DNA of 64,000 bases from the sequence record OQ992558.1. One strand, given 5' to 3'. Source of the stretch: Escherichia phage L14. The translations under genes and the position numbers were made by a program. This document shows positions 2,981-54,302 of this stretch, piece by piece. The notes beneath the pieces are model-generated. The model made no database searches. It had not been told where the DNA came from and saw only the letters and a list, made by a program, of their open reading frames with translations. The stretch's first letter is position 1. Each line of letters starts with the position of its first letter.

Positions 2981-4440
2981 AGACCAGTTACCTCATGAAA
3001 ATCACCAAATACATCCTCGAATGTATTAGCTTTAGTTTTATCTTCACGTAAACGAATCGCAATCGGAAGAAATAATTTAACGTAATCAGTGCGGCCATCA
3101 GATTTTAACCAACCGTTGCATTCGCACTCTAGAATTTTTCCAATATAATAATTTTGGTTTTCCATAATGCGAGTACGGTCAAGTTCATGCGATTTTACAC
3201 CGGCTTTATCTTTTAAGCCTGAACCAGCATTTACTTTAATTTTTCCACACTCTGACTCAAGAATAAATCCACCTGCTTTAGTAGGGTCTTTACGGTGAGG
3301 ATAAATTCCTACAATTTTTAAATCAACATCAATTACTTCTTTAAATTTATAGAGATTTTTTGAACGAGCATTTTCCCATAATCCATCGATATTTTTGAGA
3401 ATAATACCTTCAAGACCTTGGTCAATATACTTTTTATAAATTACCTTAGCTTCATCTAGGTTATTTACTACCTGGTTTTCAATTAAAATTACTTTATCAT
3501 ATCCCGATGTCATTTGTTCTAGTTTAGAAAAACGTACATCATATTTTAAACGAAACGCTGGAAGACCGTATATTTCTACCAACGGGACATAATCCCAGAC
3601 CTGAAACTTCATACATTGAGCTTCTTTTTCAGAAATGGTTCCCTTTAAAGATTTATTGGCGATGCCATTAGATGCAGTACGTGATTCAGCTACTTCGGCG
3701 AATTCTTTAGCTTTACTGTTTTCAGGATAAGCATCAAAAAGAAAATCTAGGCCTTCTGGCTCCTTTTCAACTTGCTCATGGTATACCAATTCGCCATCAA
3801 TTAACACGCCTTCTGGATGAATCTGGCGGGCTTCAGCGGTCATTTTGATTAATTCTTCCTTAAGAAGATCTAATCCTAGATATTCATTACCAGCTCGTGA
3901 TAAAAGACGAACGTCATCTAATTCATCACCTCTGACTTCGGCAAAGCACCGAGCTCCATCTGCTTTTAACTGGGCAAAGGCTGGAAATTTGATATTCTTA
4001 TTAATGCCTTTTTCATCATAAGAACTTGCGAGCATTTGAGGTTGTTCAGGAATTAAACCTGGCCAAACTTTGTTTGCAATAGATACTGAAGCACCACATT
4101 CAAGGTCTCGCATCATCACTCGACGCAAAACTTCAACATCATCTTTTTTACCGTCAGTAATATAACCTACTAATTCCTCAATTGCCGCATTTCCGGTCAA
4201 TTTTCGAGTAGCTAATGTAAATTCAATGAAGTCAAGCATATCAGTAATAGTCAGCATTCCAAAACTCTGGGTAGCAATACCAGGTTTAGGCCATTTCTTG
4301 ATATAATACTGTAACCCACGAGAATAAGTCAGACGATATACTCGTTTAAGCAATTCATTATCTTTATTCTTTTCAAGAATTGCTTGCTTCTGCTTAGTTG
4401 AACCAATAGATGCTATTTCGTTCAGAATTTTAAGAATCAT
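2977..4440 (-). CDS. 30: ATP-dependent DNA ligase
   Basis: 487 aa, recognised as T4 gp30; adenylation motif KADGAR. Confidence 0.93.
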   Translation of the reverse strand: MILKILNEIASIGSTKQKQAILEKNKDNELLKRVYRLTYSRGLQYYIKKWPKPGIATQSFGMLTITDMLDFIEFTLATRKLTGNAAIEELVGYITDGKKDDVEVLRRVMMRDLECGASVSIANKVWPGLIPEQPQMLASSYDEKGINKNIKFPAFAQLKADGARCFAEVRGDELDDVRLLSRAGNEYLGLDLLKEELIKMTAEARQIHPEGVLIDGELVYHEQVEKEPEGLDFLFDAYPENSKAKEFAEVAESRTASNGIANKSLKGTISEKEAQCMKFQVWDYVPLVEIYGLPAFRLKYDVRFSKLEQMTSGYDKVILIENQVVNNLDEAKVIYKKYIDQGLEGIILKNIDGLWENARSKNLYKFKEVIDVDLKIVGIYPHRKDPTKAGGFILESECGKIKVNAGSGLKDKAGVKSHELDRTRIMENQNYYIGKILECECNGWLKSDGRTDYVKLFLPIAIRLREDKTKANTFEDVFGDFHEVTGL

Positions 4441-50316: not shown

Positions 50317-50586
50317 TTATTTAAAACGGATAGTCGAATCCTTGAAGAATAGACCAGAACACACGGTTCCTTCTACTTTCTGCCCAGTAGGTCCAATAGC
50401 ACGAAATCCAGTATGTTGAAAATCATTTTCAGAGCAACCGAACCAGTTGTATCCAGTGATTTCAATATTAGTAAAACCACTTGAAGACAAAACTTTGGTT
50501 GCATTATCAGCATCAGTACATCCTGCTAAAGACACTGCTAATACTAATGCTGCGATAGAACGATTAATATATTTCATAGTTTTCAC
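50317..50586 (-). CDS. putative lipoprotein (89 aa)
   Basis: signal peptide plus lipobox LAGC. Confidence 0.6.
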   Translation of the reverse strand: MKTMKYINRSIAALVLAVSLAGCTDADNATKVLSSSGFTNIEITGYNWFGCSENDFQHTGFRAIGPTGQKVEGTVCSGLFFKDSTIRFK

Positions 50587-50954
50587 TTAAATTTAATGGC
50601 TTGAAGGAGACTAATAATTCTCAAGCGACTTCTTTCATCTTTAACCGTAAATGAAAGAGGGTCACCAGATTTCATAATGATAGTGCATTCAAAATCAAAA
50701 TCTTCGGGAACTTCTTCGAAGAAGTCAAATTCTTCATCATATATTAGAACATTACTCTGAAAACTGTGAAGAATTTTTCCATCATTTCCAGATGCTGTAC
50801 TAATCATTGTAACATTATTACCTTTCATATCTTCAACGATAAATTCGCTTGTAGATATTACGGCATTAATAGAACCATTCCTATAAATAGCAGAAAATAG
50901 ATATTTCTTTTCTTCACCTTCGCGAATGCGATATTTCTTACCAATTTTAAACAT
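50583..50954 (-). CDS. hypothetical protein (123 aa)
   Basis: coding-strand ORF. Confidence 0.55.
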   Translation of the reverse strand: MFKIGKKYRIREGEEKKYLFSAIYRNGSINAVISTSEFIVEDMKGNNVTMISTASGNDGKILHSFQSNVLIYDEEFDFFEEVPEDFDFECTIIMKSGDPLSFTVKDERSRLRIISLLQAIKFK

Positions 50955-51135: not shown

Positions 51136-51549
51136 TTATTCCTTAAAGTGAGCTTTCAACATCTGATACAAAGACCATGCCTGTTCATTATTTTCAATAG
51201 TAACGTTCATGACCGGGAATTTAGATGGATCAGTTATTGTTGCAGATTCTTCCTGCTCTTCAGCTGCCTGGTATGGATTTTCAACTTCATTAAAGAATTC
51301 AGCTTCATTCGATGAAAGCCAAATAAAATCTTCATCCAAAATATCTTTACCAGAAGATAGTACTAAATTTCCAGCAAATGACATAATTTTAATAGGACGC
51401 CCAAGAGCATCCACATCTAAAATTTTAAAAGGATGCATACCTAAACGGCGTGCATAGATTCCGTTATCAGTATGGTCTTTAATAAAATTTTCTTGAGCTT
51501 GTTTATTTTTAAATTGATACCATTTATTAACTTCAAATTTAATAGCCAT
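51136..51549 (-). CDS. hypothetical protein (137 aa)
   Basis: coding-strand ORF. Confidence 0.55.
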
Positions 51550-51764
51550 TAATAAATTTCCTTCCAGTAAGTTGTACCGTCTTCAGTGATTTCACGAAAT
51601 ACACCGTAAATTGGTTGTTTATCCCCAACCTTTTCATACACATAAACCGAAGTCAAGTGAGTAAACTTAGCAGTGTGTTCCTTTTGAACTACTACCAAAT
51701 CTGGATCGAATAACACATCTTCAAATTCGTCATTAGTGCAGTTCTGAACAATTTTACGTTTCAT
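51549..51764 (-). CDS. hypothetical protein (71 aa)
   Basis: coding-strand ORF. Confidence 0.5.
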
Positions 51765-51935
51765 TACAATTTCCTCGTTAATTGAACATTGGAGCGATGC
51801 GTTTCAGAAGAGTAGCAGCACCTTTGGCAAATTTTCCATTTTATTCTCCAAGTTATTTTCTGTATCAGTAGTTGATATTGATATAGTACCATAATCAACT
51901 ACTGATGTATATAGTTTTATGAAAAAATTTAAACT

Positions 51936-52433
51936 TTATGCATAGCGAGCTTTGCTATAGTGTTTAATCCAACTTTCAGGAATGACTTTGTATGTTCCTA
52001 AAAATACTGCGTTGTACAACTTAACGCCATCTTCTACCCACTGATCGGTAATGTATGCACACATAGCGCGAGTACGGTGTTTTTGAACAACCCCTTCTTC
52101 GTCTTCGGTAAATTCAAATTCATAAGGAGCGACGAACTTAATAGCTTGACCGAGTTTCCACTTAAAGTCTACACCTACGTGCGAAGTATCAATCGTTTCA
52201 ATTCCTTTAGCAGGAACAGCTTTCAAAAACGCAGATTCAAGAAATTTCGCACGAACATAGCCAAACTGAGGTTTAGACTTTCCATCTTTAGGAATGATAC
52301 GCACTTTTACTTCAGAATCTTCATCTTTAACACCATGTTTAAGCTGAATGCTTACAATTTCAACCAATTTTCCTGCTGCTTTAGAACGGGATTTATCAGA
52401 TACACGAGCAATTTCACCAATATTAATAATCAT
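51936..52433 (-). CDS. hypothetical protein (165 aa), paralog family with 52510..53052
   Basis: shares C-terminal motif ITDQWVEDGVKLYNAVF with the next ORF. Confidence 0.55.
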   Translation of the reverse strand: MIINIGEIARVSDKSRSKAAGKLVEIVSIQLKHGVKDEDSEVKVRIIPKDGKSKPQFGYVRAKFLESAFLKAVPAKGIETIDTSHVGVDFKWKLGQAIKFVAPYEFEFTEDEEGVVQKHRTRAMCAYITDQWVEDGVKLYNAVFLGTYKVIPESWIKHYSKARYA

Positions 52434-52509
52434 AGTTATCTCTCACTTGTTAAAAAGATTTTATACTCCACGGGACCATTATACTCTGGTCCCAAGAGTT
52501 TGTAAACTA

Positions 52510-53052
52510 TTAATTCAAAATAGCTACCACTGCGCTACGAGGTACTACGCTAAAATCACCTGCATGAACAACGTTCAGGAGTTCAACGCCATCTTCAATC
52601 CACTGGTCTGTTACCCAACCACAGACCGAAATAAATGGAGTCTTGATAGCTACTGCACGAGTCAAAAGGTCAGTAGGATCGCATTCTTGGAAGAGGATAA
52701 GCTCTGCTTCAAAGACTATAGTTTTAATTACTTCATCATTATCTAAGCGATGTGCTCGAATCACGTAAGCTTTATTCTTATCATACCAATTACTTTTTGA
52801 AAAACTTTTAACCACAAACTCGCCTTCACCAAAAACACTAGTCAATGCTTTATAACCCAAATCTAGTTCAGTAGTTTTAATTTCAGTTTCAACCAGTTTG
52901 TAGATTTTGCCAATTTCGATGGTCCGAGCAGTCATAAAGGTTTCCTTAATTTCTATTGGTTTAACAAGAGTACCGTACATGCTTGCTATATCCATATCAA
53001 GCAGCTTATATACAGGATTCGGTGTGCATTCAGGATTATAATTAAATTTCAT
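52510..53052 (-). CDS. hypothetical protein (180 aa), paralog of 51936..52433
   Basis: C-terminal VTDQWIEDGVELLNVV motif. Confidence 0.55.
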   Translation of the reverse strand: MKFNYNPECTPNPVYKLLDMDIASMYGTLVKPIEIKETFMTARTIEIGKIYKLVETEIKTTELDLGYKALTSVFGEGEFVVKSFSKSNWYDKNKAYVIRAHRLDNDEVIKTIVFEAELILFQECDPTDLLTRAVAIKTPFISVCGWVTDQWIEDGVELLNVVHAGDFSVVPRSAVVAILN

Positions 53053-53054
53053 AA

Positions 53055-53555
53055 TTATCTCATTTCAATAAAATCTACAAGTTCAGCATGGGATTTGCGG
53101 AACATTACTTGGTGTCCGCCAATGATAACTTGGTCATCTGGCACTTCGTATACAGCAAGATAAAATCCTTTAGAAGATAATTCTTCACGCTCTTCTCGTG
53201 TGAACCATCTCATCATATCATATTCGCTAGCGAAAGCAAAATGATAAAGAGCTATAAACCATCCTGGAATATGATATTCTACTCCAACATAATCTTTCTT
53301 GAACTTAGTATTAATTACTATATTAGCGTTTTTAACTAATAGTTTATCTTCATGCGGTACAGGAATTCTTTTATTATCATCACTATGATGCATAAAATTA
53401 GGTCTACTATAACCTACCCGTAATAGCCACTCTTCGCTCCATGAATCCATTATACTCCTGTATGGCGTAATTTGAACGCAAAGATTTCGACGTATTGTTA
53501 TAGCGTCTTCATAATTAAGAATACTAAAAGATGATTCAACACGATAAATTTTCAT
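53055..53555 (-). CDS. hypothetical protein (166 aa)
   Basis: internal ATG with GAGGA RBS; ORF-track start is a TTG extension overlapping the promoter. Confidence 0.55.
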   Translation of the reverse strand: MKIYRVESSFSILNYEDAITIRRNLCVQITPYRSIMDSWSEEWLLRVGYSRPNFMHHSDDNKRIPVPHEDKLLVKNANIVINTKFKKDYVGVEYHIPGWFIALYHFAFASEYDMMRWFTREEREELSSKGFYLAVYEVPDDQVIIGGHQVMFRKSHAELVDFIEMR

Positions 53556-53582
53556 TTTATTATCCTCAGTAGCTATGGTGTT

Positions 53583-53612
53583 ATAATACCACAACTAACC
53601 GAGGAAGTAAAC
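53583..53612 (-). promoter_or_regulatory. T4-type early promoter
   Basis: minus strand GTTTAC-18nt-GGTATTAT. Confidence 0.5.
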
Positions 53613-53618
53613 AACTTT

Positions 53619-54302
53619 TTATCGTTTTGTTGGAAGAGATAGAGGATCGCATTCTTCCTCTGACGGAGCATCTTCAAGACCCATAGCATATCGCAAAGCA
53701 TACTTCATCATCAGGATGTCTTTAGCGCAGTCATGAATAGAATCATGTGCAACGAATCCATCTAAAGTTCCTTTTGGAAGAGGACACGTGGTCATATCAC
53801 GAACAAGCAGAAGTGCTTCAATTCTAGTACGAATATCACGCTGATTCCAGAATTTACATGGTTCTAACTTAAATGTGTCAAGCTCATTCTCAGAAACGCC
53901 ATTAAGACGTTGAATATCACGAATGAGATCGACTAAAATTGGAAAATCAAACGACATTCCACGGCACCAACCCTGAGATTTCCAGGGATCGATATTATGC
54001 GCATTGATATAATCATTAAATTTTGCAATACCATCAATGGTGCTTACATCTTCATCTGATGGTGCAATATTTTTTCGAGCTTCAGGAGACTGATTTTTCC
54101 ACCATTCGATAGTGCTTTTAGTAAAAAGACGGTGTCCTTTTTGGCTTTTTAAATCAAATTTGATTTTAATGCCACGTGAAACTAATTCATCAAATGTTTC
54201 AACTACTTCTGGATTAGGGTCAAAGGCAATAACAGCCAAATCAATAACAGCTGCCTTTTCACCGCTTCCCATTGTTTCAAAATCTATAATAAAATCAAAC
54301 AT
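53619..54302 (-). CDS. dexA: exonuclease A (DEDD 3-prime to 5-prime exonuclease)
   Basis: 227 aa; N-terminal FIIDFET exonuclease motif. Confidence 0.85.
   Translation of the reverse strand: MFDFIIDFETMGSGEKAAVIDLAVIAFDPNPEVVETFDELVSRGIKIKFDLKSQKGHRLFTKSTIEWWKNQSPEARKNIAPSDEDVSTIDGIAKFNDYINAHNIDPWKSQGWCRGMSFDFPILVDLIRDIQRLNGVSENELDTFKLEPCKFWNQRDIRTRIEALLLVRDMTTCPLPKGTLDGFVAHDSIHDCAKDILMMKYALRYAMGLEDAPSEEECDPLSLPTKR

What the first reader, a model, noticed from the sequence alone, without database searches (positions are those of the whole stretch)
51936..53555. Block of uncharacterised early ORFs including a paralogous pair with a conserved C-terminal TDQW(V/I)EDGV motif
ORFs 51936..52433 and 52510..53052 end in near-identical motifs (ITDQWVEDGVKLYNAVF and VTDQWIEDGVELLNVV) while their N-terminal regions differ. 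This suggests a shared C-terminal domain fused to variable N-terminal parts. Together with the neighbouring 166-aa ORF they form an early-promoter-driven block of unknown function upstream of dexA, a typical place for host-takeover or anti-defence genes.
Basis: seen in the sequence. Interest (0 to 1): 0.5.

Follow-up and report, generated by a model that had tools for sequence, protein, structure and literature searches.

The report
T4-type MotB and MotB.1 paralogues

Summary
ORFs 51936..52433 and 52510..53052, both on the minus strand, share a C-terminal core that chance or composition cannot explain: BLASTP E 4e-11, z 15.5 against shuffles, and profile-profile E 1.3e-15 over 37 columns.

The window comes from an RB14/RB32-like Tequatrovirus.
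- The first ORF is MotB (Pfam PF17613, full length, E 9e-100).
- The second is the "RB32ORF010c" type of the MotB.1 family.
- The 166-aa neighbour is MotB.2, 92% identical to T4 MotB.2, function unknown.

Patterson-West et al. 2021 (Viruses 13:84) already described MotB and MotB.1 proteins with a conserved C-terminal domain (CTD) and several different N-terminal domains (NTDs). Their table lists the RB14 orthologue of this ORF. The finding is therefore already known, and MotB is not uncharacterised.

What I add is small:
- The shared module is the most strongly conserved part of both families.
- It is acidic in the MotB.1-type protein, which argues against it being the DNA-binding surface.
- Fold searches return SH3-like barrels, not the OB fold the paper proposed.
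- The family is tiny, with 32 cluster representatives among 1.84 billion proteins.

In passing: the 119-aa T4 reference MotB.1 results from one extra G that is present only in AF158101/NC_000866.

The parts
51936..52433 (-). motB CDS (165 aa plus stop). It has a basic KOW/SH3-like NTD (residues 1-68), a low-confidence linker (69-87) and a beta-rich CTD (88-165).
   Evidence: Pfam PF17613 matches full length, E 9.4e-100. phrog_1671 matches at E 2e-76. The protein is 91% identical to T4 MotB. The AF2 model has mean pLDDT 80. The pI is 9.16 overall and 9.75 for the NTD.
51960..52070 (-). Shared core in MotB, residues 122-158 (RAMCAYITDQWVEDGVKLYNAVFLGTYKVIPESWIKH).
   Evidence: hhalign aligns this block with ORF2 141-177, E 1.3e-15. 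D130, W132, G136, N141 and V143 are invariant across 22 diverse family members. AF2 predicts strand, DG turn, strand, LG turn, strand with pLDDT 85-96.
52434..52509 (-). ORF2-motB spacer. It holds an early-promoter-like site (-35 TTTACA at 52506..52501, -10 TATAAT at 52483..52478) and a GGAG at 52469..52466, the position of the RegB cleavage site in T4 motB mRNA.
   Evidence: The promoter scan matches 11 of 12 positions. The spacer is 100% identical to T4 MT984581. A motB promoter and RegB cleavage at GGAG were shown experimentally in T4 (PMC1702504). Their function in this phage is inferred from sequence identity.
52510..53052 (-). motB.1-family CDS of the RB32ORF010c type (180 aa plus stop), acidic with pI 4.9.
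   Evidence: phrog_2333 matches at E 4.6e-75. The RB14 orthologue is annotated 'RB32ORF010c, similar to RB69ORF012c, motB'. The gene sits where T4 has motB.1. hhalign against T4-type MotB.1 gives E 5.5e-36 over 102 columns.
52936..53052 (-). ORF2 N-terminal extension, residues 1-39, containing the motif DMDIASMYGTLVKP.
   Evidence: It is conserved in the family, with M1-P7, N12, P13, D19, D21, Y26 and P32 invariant. AF2 pLDDT is about 30. The same motif lies directly before the CTD in KOW-type hybrids P0242, P0247, P0248, P0251, P0253, P0255 and P0258.
52681..52935 (-). ORF2 central beta-barrel domain, residues 40-124. It is probably the GoF/MotB.1/Frd.2 'LSm-like' (SH3-topology) type.
   Evidence: AF2 pLDDT is 70-85, with five strands and one helix. 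The domain is co-linear with the T4 MotB.1 NTD in hhalign. Foldseek hits T4 MotB.1 (P39415) at E 3.6e-7 over 120 columns. A GoF-like window protein cross-hits phrog_2333 at E 0.008. The direct hhalign to GoF is weak, probability 6%.
52513..52680 (-). ORF2 CTD, residues 125-180 (DPTDLL...GWVTDQWIEDGVELLNVVHAGDFSVVPRSAVVAILN). The core shared with MotB is residues 141-177, at 52522..52632.
   Evidence: Mean identity across the family is 95.5%, against 67-71% for the rest of the protein. Against T4, the last 36 codons show 9 synonymous and 2 conservative non-synonymous changes. The pI is 4.3. AF2 predicts three strands plus a helix at pLDDT 50-66.
53055..53555 (-). motB.2 CDS (166 aa plus stop), function unknown. 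GAGGAT is the Shine-Dalgarno sequence, with GGAT at 53565..53562.
   Evidence: The protein is 92% identical to T4 MotB.2. All homologues carry PF26820 and come from T4-like phages. phrog_1106 is of unknown function. The local Pfam copy, NCBIfam, PADLOC and PDB gave no hits. The GGAU of motB.2 is cleaved by RegB in T4 (PMC1702504).
53583..53611 (-). Weaker promoter-like site between dexA and motB.2 (TTTACT-17-TATTAT, with TG before the -10).
   Evidence: The scan matches 9 of 12 positions. Such matches are not enriched over shuffles in this AT-rich DNA (24 found, 23 expected), so this is only a candidate.

Best explanation
Shown: the window is from an RB14/RB32-like T4-type phage, and the block is the early gene string dexA -> motB.2 -> motB.1-family gene -> motB -> cef, all on the minus strand. 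ORF 51936..52433 is MotB. In T4, MotB is an abundant early protein that binds DNA non-specifically, co-purifies with H-NS and StpA on DNA, changes the H-NS footprint, de-represses part of the H-NS regulon, is toxic when expressed alone, and doubles burst size. ORF 52510..53052 is an old paralogue of the MotB.1 group. It keeps the MotB C-terminal module, and its N-terminus differs from MotB's: a 39-aa extension followed by a small beta-barrel of the GoF/MotB.1 kind.

Inferred: the shared module is the C-terminal half of a small beta-barrel, with a strand-DG-strand-xG-strand arrangement around invariant D, W, G, N and V. It is the part of both proteins under the strongest protein-level constraint. 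It is neutral in MotB and acidic in the MotB.1-type protein. I therefore think it is a common structural or partner-binding (possibly self-association) module, not the DNA-binding surface. The N-terminal domains would then supply the differing activity: a basic KOW-like barrel that grips DNA in MotB, and an acidic LSm/SH3-like barrel of unknown ligand in the paralogue.
For: Identity:
- Pfam and PHROG hits.
- 95-97% DNA identity to RB14-like phages, with matching annotation.
- Synteny with T4.
- T4 comparisons.

Homology of the C-termini: plus the family alignment with invariant D130, W132, G136, N141 and V143.

Published function of MotB: PMC6070864 and PMC7827196.

Constraint on the module:
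- 95.5% identity against 67-71% for the rest in the ORF2 family, and 65% against 39-60% in the MotB family.
- 9 synonymous against 2 non-synonymous differences in the last 36 codons.

Charge: MotB pI 9.16 (NTD 9.75, CTD 6.9); ORF2 pI 4.9 (CTD 4.3).

Structure:
- The two AF2 models show the same secondary-structure pattern in the shared segment.
- Foldseek finds the two families reciprocally, E 3e-5 to 1e-3.

Modularity: the same CTD appears behind KOW, T4-MotB.1-type, ORF2-type, duplicated and extended N-termini.
Against: - The functional role of the shared module is not tested anywhere. Patterson-West et al. assign it to an OB-fold DNA-binding domain and note that either domain could bind DNA.
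- My ORF2 model is poor in the CTD (pLDDT 50-66), and the fold searches are not resolved by domain. Global TM-scores between the two families are only about 0.3.
- A direct MotB/H-NS contact without DNA could not be shown experimentally. H-NS is therefore not an established partner of the module.
- T4 delta-motB.1 has no phenotype under laboratory conditions.
Confidence: 0.8

Rival explanations
1. The shared C-terminal module is an OB-fold (cold-shock-like) nucleic-acid-binding domain, as proposed in the literature. On this reading the MotB.1-type protein is a second DNA- or RNA-binding nucleoid protein that acts in parallel with MotB.
For: Patterson-West 2021 report HHpred assignment to SCOPe b.40.4.5 and eIF5A for the MotB CTD. 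MotB binds DNA tightly. eIF5A-like viral models appear among weak Foldseek hits, E about 0.02.
Confidence: 0.25
2. The MotB.1-type protein works with or against MotB through the shared module. By hetero-association or by competing for one partner, it would act as an acidic modulator of the toxic, DNA-coating MotB.
For: The genes are adjacent and usually co-occur: tblastn typically finds 2 places per record, and the paper reports 40 genomes carrying both. The CTD is highly conserved. The two proteins have opposite charge. T4 MotB.1 runs as monomer and dimer on gels. MotB appears to coat DNA cooperatively.
Against: No interaction data exist. The paralogues are only 43% identical in the core, with 49.5% nucleotide identity, so the interfaces may have diverged. 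AlphaFold3 gave no confident homomultimers for T4 MotB.1. Delta-motB.1 has no phenotype.
Confidence: 0.15
3. The motif match is compositional or due to chance, or it reflects DNA-level conservation, for example the neighbouring motB promoter, and not a protein domain.
For: The 3' end of ORF2 abuts a promoter-bearing spacer that is 100% identical to T4's.
Against: z is 15-20 against shuffles, with 0 of 5000 reaching the observed score. BLASTP is composition-adjusted, E 4e-11. hhalign gives E 1.3e-15. Differences from T4 in the CTD are mainly synonymous, 9 against 2. The two paralogous cores share only 49.5% nucleotide identity but 16/37 amino acids. MotB's own CTD is not followed by that promoter and is still the best-conserved part of its family.
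Confidence: 0.01

Closest known systems
T4 MotB (Pfam PF17613; Patterson-West et al. 2018 and 2021; Son et al. 2021 NAR, cited in PMC13096335)
   Same: ORF 51936..52433 is 91% identical to T4 MotB. It has the same length class, the same position between cef and motB.1, the same promoter and RegB-site spacer, and the same basic pI.
   Different: Nothing of note. It is 3 residues longer than T4 MotB (165 against 162 aa), with a few substitutions around residues 108-120.
[quoted passage not shown] 2021; LSm-like family of Kim et al. 2025)
   Same: ORF 52510..53052 lies immediately 5' of motB. Its last 36 residues differ from resequenced T4 MotB.1 at 2 positions. It has the DPTDLL...GWVTDQWIEDGVELLNVVHAG form of the CTD. 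Its central barrel is co-linear with the T4 MotB.1 NTD. Its RB14 orthologue YP_002854346 is in the paper's Table S4.
   Different: The N-terminal 124 residues show no BLAST-level similarity to T4 MotB.1. The protein also carries an extra 39-aa N-terminal extension with a DxDxxxMY motif. It is 180 aa, against 143 aa for resequenced T4 MotB.1 and 119 aa in the reference annotation.
T4 MotB.2 (PF26820)
   Same: ORF 53055..53555 is 92% identical, with the same length and position.
   Different: None. The function is unknown in T4 as well.
SH3-like small beta-barrels (KOW of NusG/Spt5, Tudor, PWWP, chromo)
   Different: Sequence identity is 5-23%. There is no evidence for an aromatic cage or for the KOW partner contacts. 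The search does not show which MotB domain was matched.

Membership tests
MotB (Pfam PF17613, PHROG 1671) | Full-length match to the family profile, including the N-terminal KOW-like barrel with the V-S-x-x-S-R-S-K-x-A-G motif | tested here: met
   ORF 51936..52433 covers profile positions 1-162 of 162, E 9.4e-100, and contains RVSDKSRSKAAG. ORF 52510..53052 does not meet this feature: only profile positions 120-153 match.
MotB (Pfam PF17613, PHROG 1671) | Basic protein that binds DNA non-specifically | not testable with these tools
   The computed pI of 9.16 for ORF 51936..52433 agrees with the 9.23 published for T4 MotB. DNA binding itself cannot be tested here. ORF2 has pI 4.9.
MotB (Pfam PF17613, PHROG 1671) | Position between cef and motB.1/motB.2/dexA in a Tevenvirinae early region | tested here: met
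   The gene order in the window matches RB14 and T4.
MotB.1 group (Patterson-West 2021, Categories 2-4) | A CTD closer to MotB.1 than to MotB, combined with a non-KOW N-terminus | tested here: met
   ORF2 against T4-type MotB.1: hhalign E 5.5e-36, with the last 31 columns nearly identical and 34 of the last 36 residues identical. Against MotB the core identity is only 43%. The RB14 orthologue is listed in Table S4 of the paper.
MotB.1 group (Patterson-West 2021, Categories 2-4) | Gene immediately 5' of motB | tested here: met
   The ORF2 stop lies 76 nt before the motB start, and the spacer is the same as in T4.
GoF/MotB.1/Frd.2 LSm-like fold family (Kim et al. 2025) | [quoted passage not shown] | tested here: inconclusive
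   The AF2 model of residues 45-125 has five strands and one helix at pLDDT 70-85. It is co-linear with the T4 MotB.1 NTD in hhalign, and Foldseek hits P39415 at E 3.6e-7. The phrog_2333 cross-hit from a GoF-like protein is only E 0.008, and the direct hhalign to GoF has only 6% probability.
OB-fold, cold-shock DNA-binding domain (proposed for the MotB CTD) | Five-stranded OB topology that resembles CSD/eIF5A C-domain structures | tested here: inconclusive
MotB.2 (PF26820) | Full-length similarity to T4 MotB.2 | tested here: met
   152/165 residues are identical, E 7e-120. All 89 homologues are about 166-170 aa or fragments, and most carry PF26820.
Known anti-phage defence or anti-defence proteins | Match to a curated defence-system model | tested here: not met
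PADLOC gave no hit for any of the three proteins at E <= 1.

The most novel reading that the evidence does not exclude
The conserved module is not a DNA-binding OB fold. It is a partner-binding or self-association half-barrel that phages attach to different nucleic-acid-binding barrels: KOW, LSm-like, duplicated or extended forms. A short mobile DxDxxxMY motif would be shuffled along with it. The acidic MotB.1-type protein would then be a built-in modulator of the phage nucleoid protein MotB, or a second effector aimed at the same host partner.
Probability: 0.15. Interest if true: 0.45.

Novelty: already known. Interest (0 to 1): 0.15.

Why it matters
As it stands, this matters little. The genes, their paralogy and their modular architecture are published for T4-like phages, and this window adds only one more RB14-like example.

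Two points could help people who work on T4 host takeover:
- The shared module is the best-conserved part of both proteins, yet it is acidic in the MotB.1 type. That points experiments toward a partner-binding role for the module, away from a DNA-binding one.
- The reference T4 annotation of MotB.1 (119 aa, 13.8 kDa) lacks the last roughly 28 residues of this module because of a single extra G, which every other T4 record listed in the search lacks. Constructs built from the reference CDS would not contain the intact domain.

Tried and rejected
- **PDB sequence searches.** Searches with MotB, ORF2, MotB.2 and the family profile found no relative with a solved structure. Only E > 0.02 SH3-like noise came back.
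- **Family libraries.** NCBIfam and PADLOC gave nothing.
- **Promoter and terminator scan.** Matches were not enriched over shuffles, 24 against 23 expected. I rely only on the 11/12 site, which is identical to T4's.
- **GoF link.** hhalign of the ORF2 family against GoF-like proteins gave only 6% probability.
- **Missing paper.** Son et al. 2021 (NAR 49:9229), the key paper on MotB as a nucleoid-associated protein, is not in the held library. I cite it only through PMC13096335.
- **Chance or compositional match.** Considered and rejected.
- **DNA-level conservation caused by the adjacent promoter.** Considered and rejected.
- **A third hidden copy of the module in the window.** Considered and rejected.

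Full report
**1. What is there**

The region 50-56 kb of the window is read entirely on the minus strand. The gene order in the direction of transcription is dda, three small ORFs, dexA (53619..54302), a 166-aa ORF (53055..53555), a 180-aa ORF (52510..53052), a 165-aa ORF (51936..52433), cef, then goF-like genes and topoisomerase gene 39.

Megablast of 51700-53800 finds 658 phage records. The best are Tequatrovirus genomes at 95-97% identity, including RB14. In RB14 the three ORFs are annotated motB.2, "RB32ORF010c, similar to RB69ORF012c, motB" and motB. In T4 the same positions hold motB.2, motB.1 and motB. The block is therefore downstream of dexA in the transcriptional sense, not upstream.

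**2. The observation**

The similarity is far beyond chance:
- BLASTP gives 16/32 identities, E 4e-11 with compositional adjustment.
- The Smith-Waterman score is 105, against 29.7 +/- 4.9 in 5000 shuffles. None reached 105. When only the C-terminal parts are shuffled, z is 20.
- Profile-profile comparison of the two families gives probability 98.6%, E 1.3e-15, over ORF2 141-177 and MotB 122-158.
- Pfam's MotB model (PF17613) hits the first ORF end to end (E 9e-100). It hits the second ORF only at residues 142-175, still above the curated cut-off.

The N-terminal parts are unrelated at the sequence level. A profile of the module finds exactly two copies in the window.

**3. Identity of the three proteins**

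- ORF 51936..52433 is MotB, 91% identical to T4 MotB.
- ORF 53055..53555 is MotB.2, 92% identical to T4 MotB.2. Its homologues are confined to T4-like phages and carry PF26820. No function is known.
- ORF 52510..53052 belongs to the MotB.1 group. It occupies the motB.1 position. Its last 36 residues differ from T4 MotB.1 at two positions. hhalign against T4-type MotB.1 gives E 5.5e-36 over 102 columns.

The first 124 residues of this third protein differ from T4 MotB.1. The AF2 model has mean pLDDT 59.6. It places a five-stranded barrel with one helix at residues 45-125 (pLDDT 70-85). Before it comes a disordered 39-residue extension. After it come three strands and a helix, predicted with low confidence. 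Foldseek against viral models hits T4 MotB.1 (P39415) at E 3.6e-7 over 120 columns. Kim et al. 2025 describe the T4 MotB.1, GoF and Frd.2 N-terminal domains as LSm-like, SH3-topology barrels. My link from ORF2 to that family is plausible but weak.

**4. Prior knowledge**

Patterson-West et al. 2021 (PMC7827196) aligned 102 phage homologues of MotB and sorted them into four categories:
- MotB proper.
- A 29-aa RB69 peptide.

They suggested that one gene arose from the other by duplication. Their supplementary table lists YP_002854346, the RB14 "RB32ORF010c" protein, which is the orthologue of the ORF in this window.

MotB itself has been studied. It is an abundant early protein that binds host DNA and glucosyl-hydroxymethylcytosine-modified T4 DNA without sequence specificity. 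It is toxic in E. coli and increases burst size two-fold. [quoted passage not shown] T4 delta-motB.1 has no phenotype in the laboratory. The finding is therefore already known, and "uncharacterised" is wrong for one member of the pair.

**5. Early expression**

The 79 nt from the ORF2 stop to the motB start are 100% identical to T4. They contain TTTACA-17-TATAAT, the best minus-strand promoter match in the 5.5-kb stretch scanned (11/12), and a GGAG followed by an A-rich tract. In T4, a motB promoter was mapped by primer extension, and RegB, which inactivates early mRNAs, cleaves motB mRNA at GGAG and motB.2 mRNA at GGAU (PMC1702504). The GGAT in the motB.2 Shine-Dalgarno sequence is present here as well. 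Function in this phage is inferred from that identity. The promoter scan alone is not informative, with 24 matches against 23 expected.

**6. What the shared module looks like**

An exhaustive profile search of 1.84 billion cluster representatives found only 32 hits. In all the short proteins the module is C-terminal. The N-termini include:
- the MotB KOW type;
- KOW fused to the MotB.1-type CTD;
- the T4 MotB.1 type;
- the ORF2 type;
- a tandem duplication of the ORF2-type barrel (P0244);
- an extra N-terminal domain (P0241).

Across 22 diverse members D130, W132, G136, N141 and V143 (MotB numbering) are invariant. Intermediates such as P0250, P0251 and P0253 connect MotB's "GQAIKFVAPYEFEF" to the MotB.1-type "DPTDLL..AV.I..PF". 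The homologous domain is therefore probably 55-75 residues with a hairpin of variable length, although only 37 residues align directly between the two window proteins.

**7. Mechanistic inference**

The module is the most conserved part of each family:
- ORF2 family: 95.5% mean identity, against 67-71% elsewhere.
- MotB family: 65%, against 39-60% elsewhere.

The conservation acts on the protein. There are nine synonymous and two conservative non-synonymous differences from T4 in the last 36 codons, and the two paralogous cores share only 49.5% nucleotide identity.

MotB is basic (pI 9.16), and the charge is concentrated in the KOW-like NTD (pI 9.75), while its CTD is neutral (6.9). The MotB.1-type protein is acidic (4.9), and its CTD has pI 4.3. 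From this I infer that the N-terminal barrels carry the ligand specificity, DNA in the case of MotB. The shared module would provide a common structural, self-association or partner-binding function. This step is inference. The published alternative (OB-fold DNA binding) and a MotB/MotB.1 interplay model are listed as rivals.

**8. Verdict**

The novelty class is "already known" and interest is low. The small additions are:
- the charge and conservation argument;
- the SH3-like rather than OB fold matches;
- the narrow distribution of the family;
- the mobile DxDxxxMY motif;
- the frameshift in the T4 reference record (see the items noticed in passing).

Noticed in passing
L003 (NC_000866.4) 3792..4151; compared with window 52588..52611 and L004/L005: The T4 reference motB.1 (119 aa, 13.8 kDa) ends ...GWVTDQWIGRWR because of one extra G (TGGATTGGAAGATGG against TGGATTGAAGATGG). 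The +1 frame continues EDGVELLNVVHAGEYSVVPRSAVVAILN. Only AF158101.6 and NC_000866.4 carry the extra G. The 13 other T4-named records listed (T4T, KJ477684-6, MT984581, OZ209023 and others) lack it, and the two I opened (T4T HM137666 and MT984581) annotate a 143-aa MotB.1. The two papers on MotB.1 use the 13.8-kDa form and mention no frameshift. The 29-aa RB69 'Category 3' peptide may be an orphan tail of the same kind.
   Followed up: yes
window 52957..53001 (ORF2 residues 18-32); P0242, P0247, P0248, P0251, P0253, P0255, P0258: A short motif D-x-D-[IV]-x-x-M-Y-x-T-x-x-x-P lies in the N-terminal extension of ORF2-type proteins, before the barrel. In KOW-type hybrids and in P0247 it lies directly before the DPTDLL start of the CTD. 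In ORF2 the barrel therefore looks like an insertion between this motif and the CTD. AF2 gives no confident structure for it.
   Followed up: partly
P0259 (43 aa): In some phage or metagenome a deletion joins the first 15 residues of MotB.2 (MKIYRVESSFSILDY) directly to the last 28 residues of the MotB.1-type CTD (EDGVELLNVVHAG...ILN).
   Followed up: no
window 50583..50954 and 51136..51549 (minus strand): Two GoF-like paralogues (both phrog_622, only 22% identical to each other) sit a few genes downstream. The first also weakly hits the ORF2 family profile phrog_2333 (E 0.008). This suggests that the region is a cluster of small proteins built from related SH3/LSm-like barrels.
   Followed up: partly
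window 51765..51935 (minus strand), between motB and cef: This 171-nt non-coding spacer contains an 11-bp inverted repeat, CAGTAGTTGAT...ATCAACTACTG, read directly from the sequence. The terminator scan did not flag it and I did not examine it further.
   Followed up: no
window 52470..52491 (minus strand): The -10 hexamer of the motB promoter lies in the loop of a GGGACC...GGTCCC inverted repeat (GGGACCAGAGTATAATGGTCCC), which is conserved identically in T4. Its significance is unknown.
   Followed up: no
P0025; L002 (phage Killian) annotations: Public annotations of these genes are inconsistent and sometimes misleading. An ORF2 homologue is named 'putative adenylribosylating enzyme', MotB.2 is called 'cell wall hydrolase', and DexA.2 is called 'dextranase'.
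   Followed up: no
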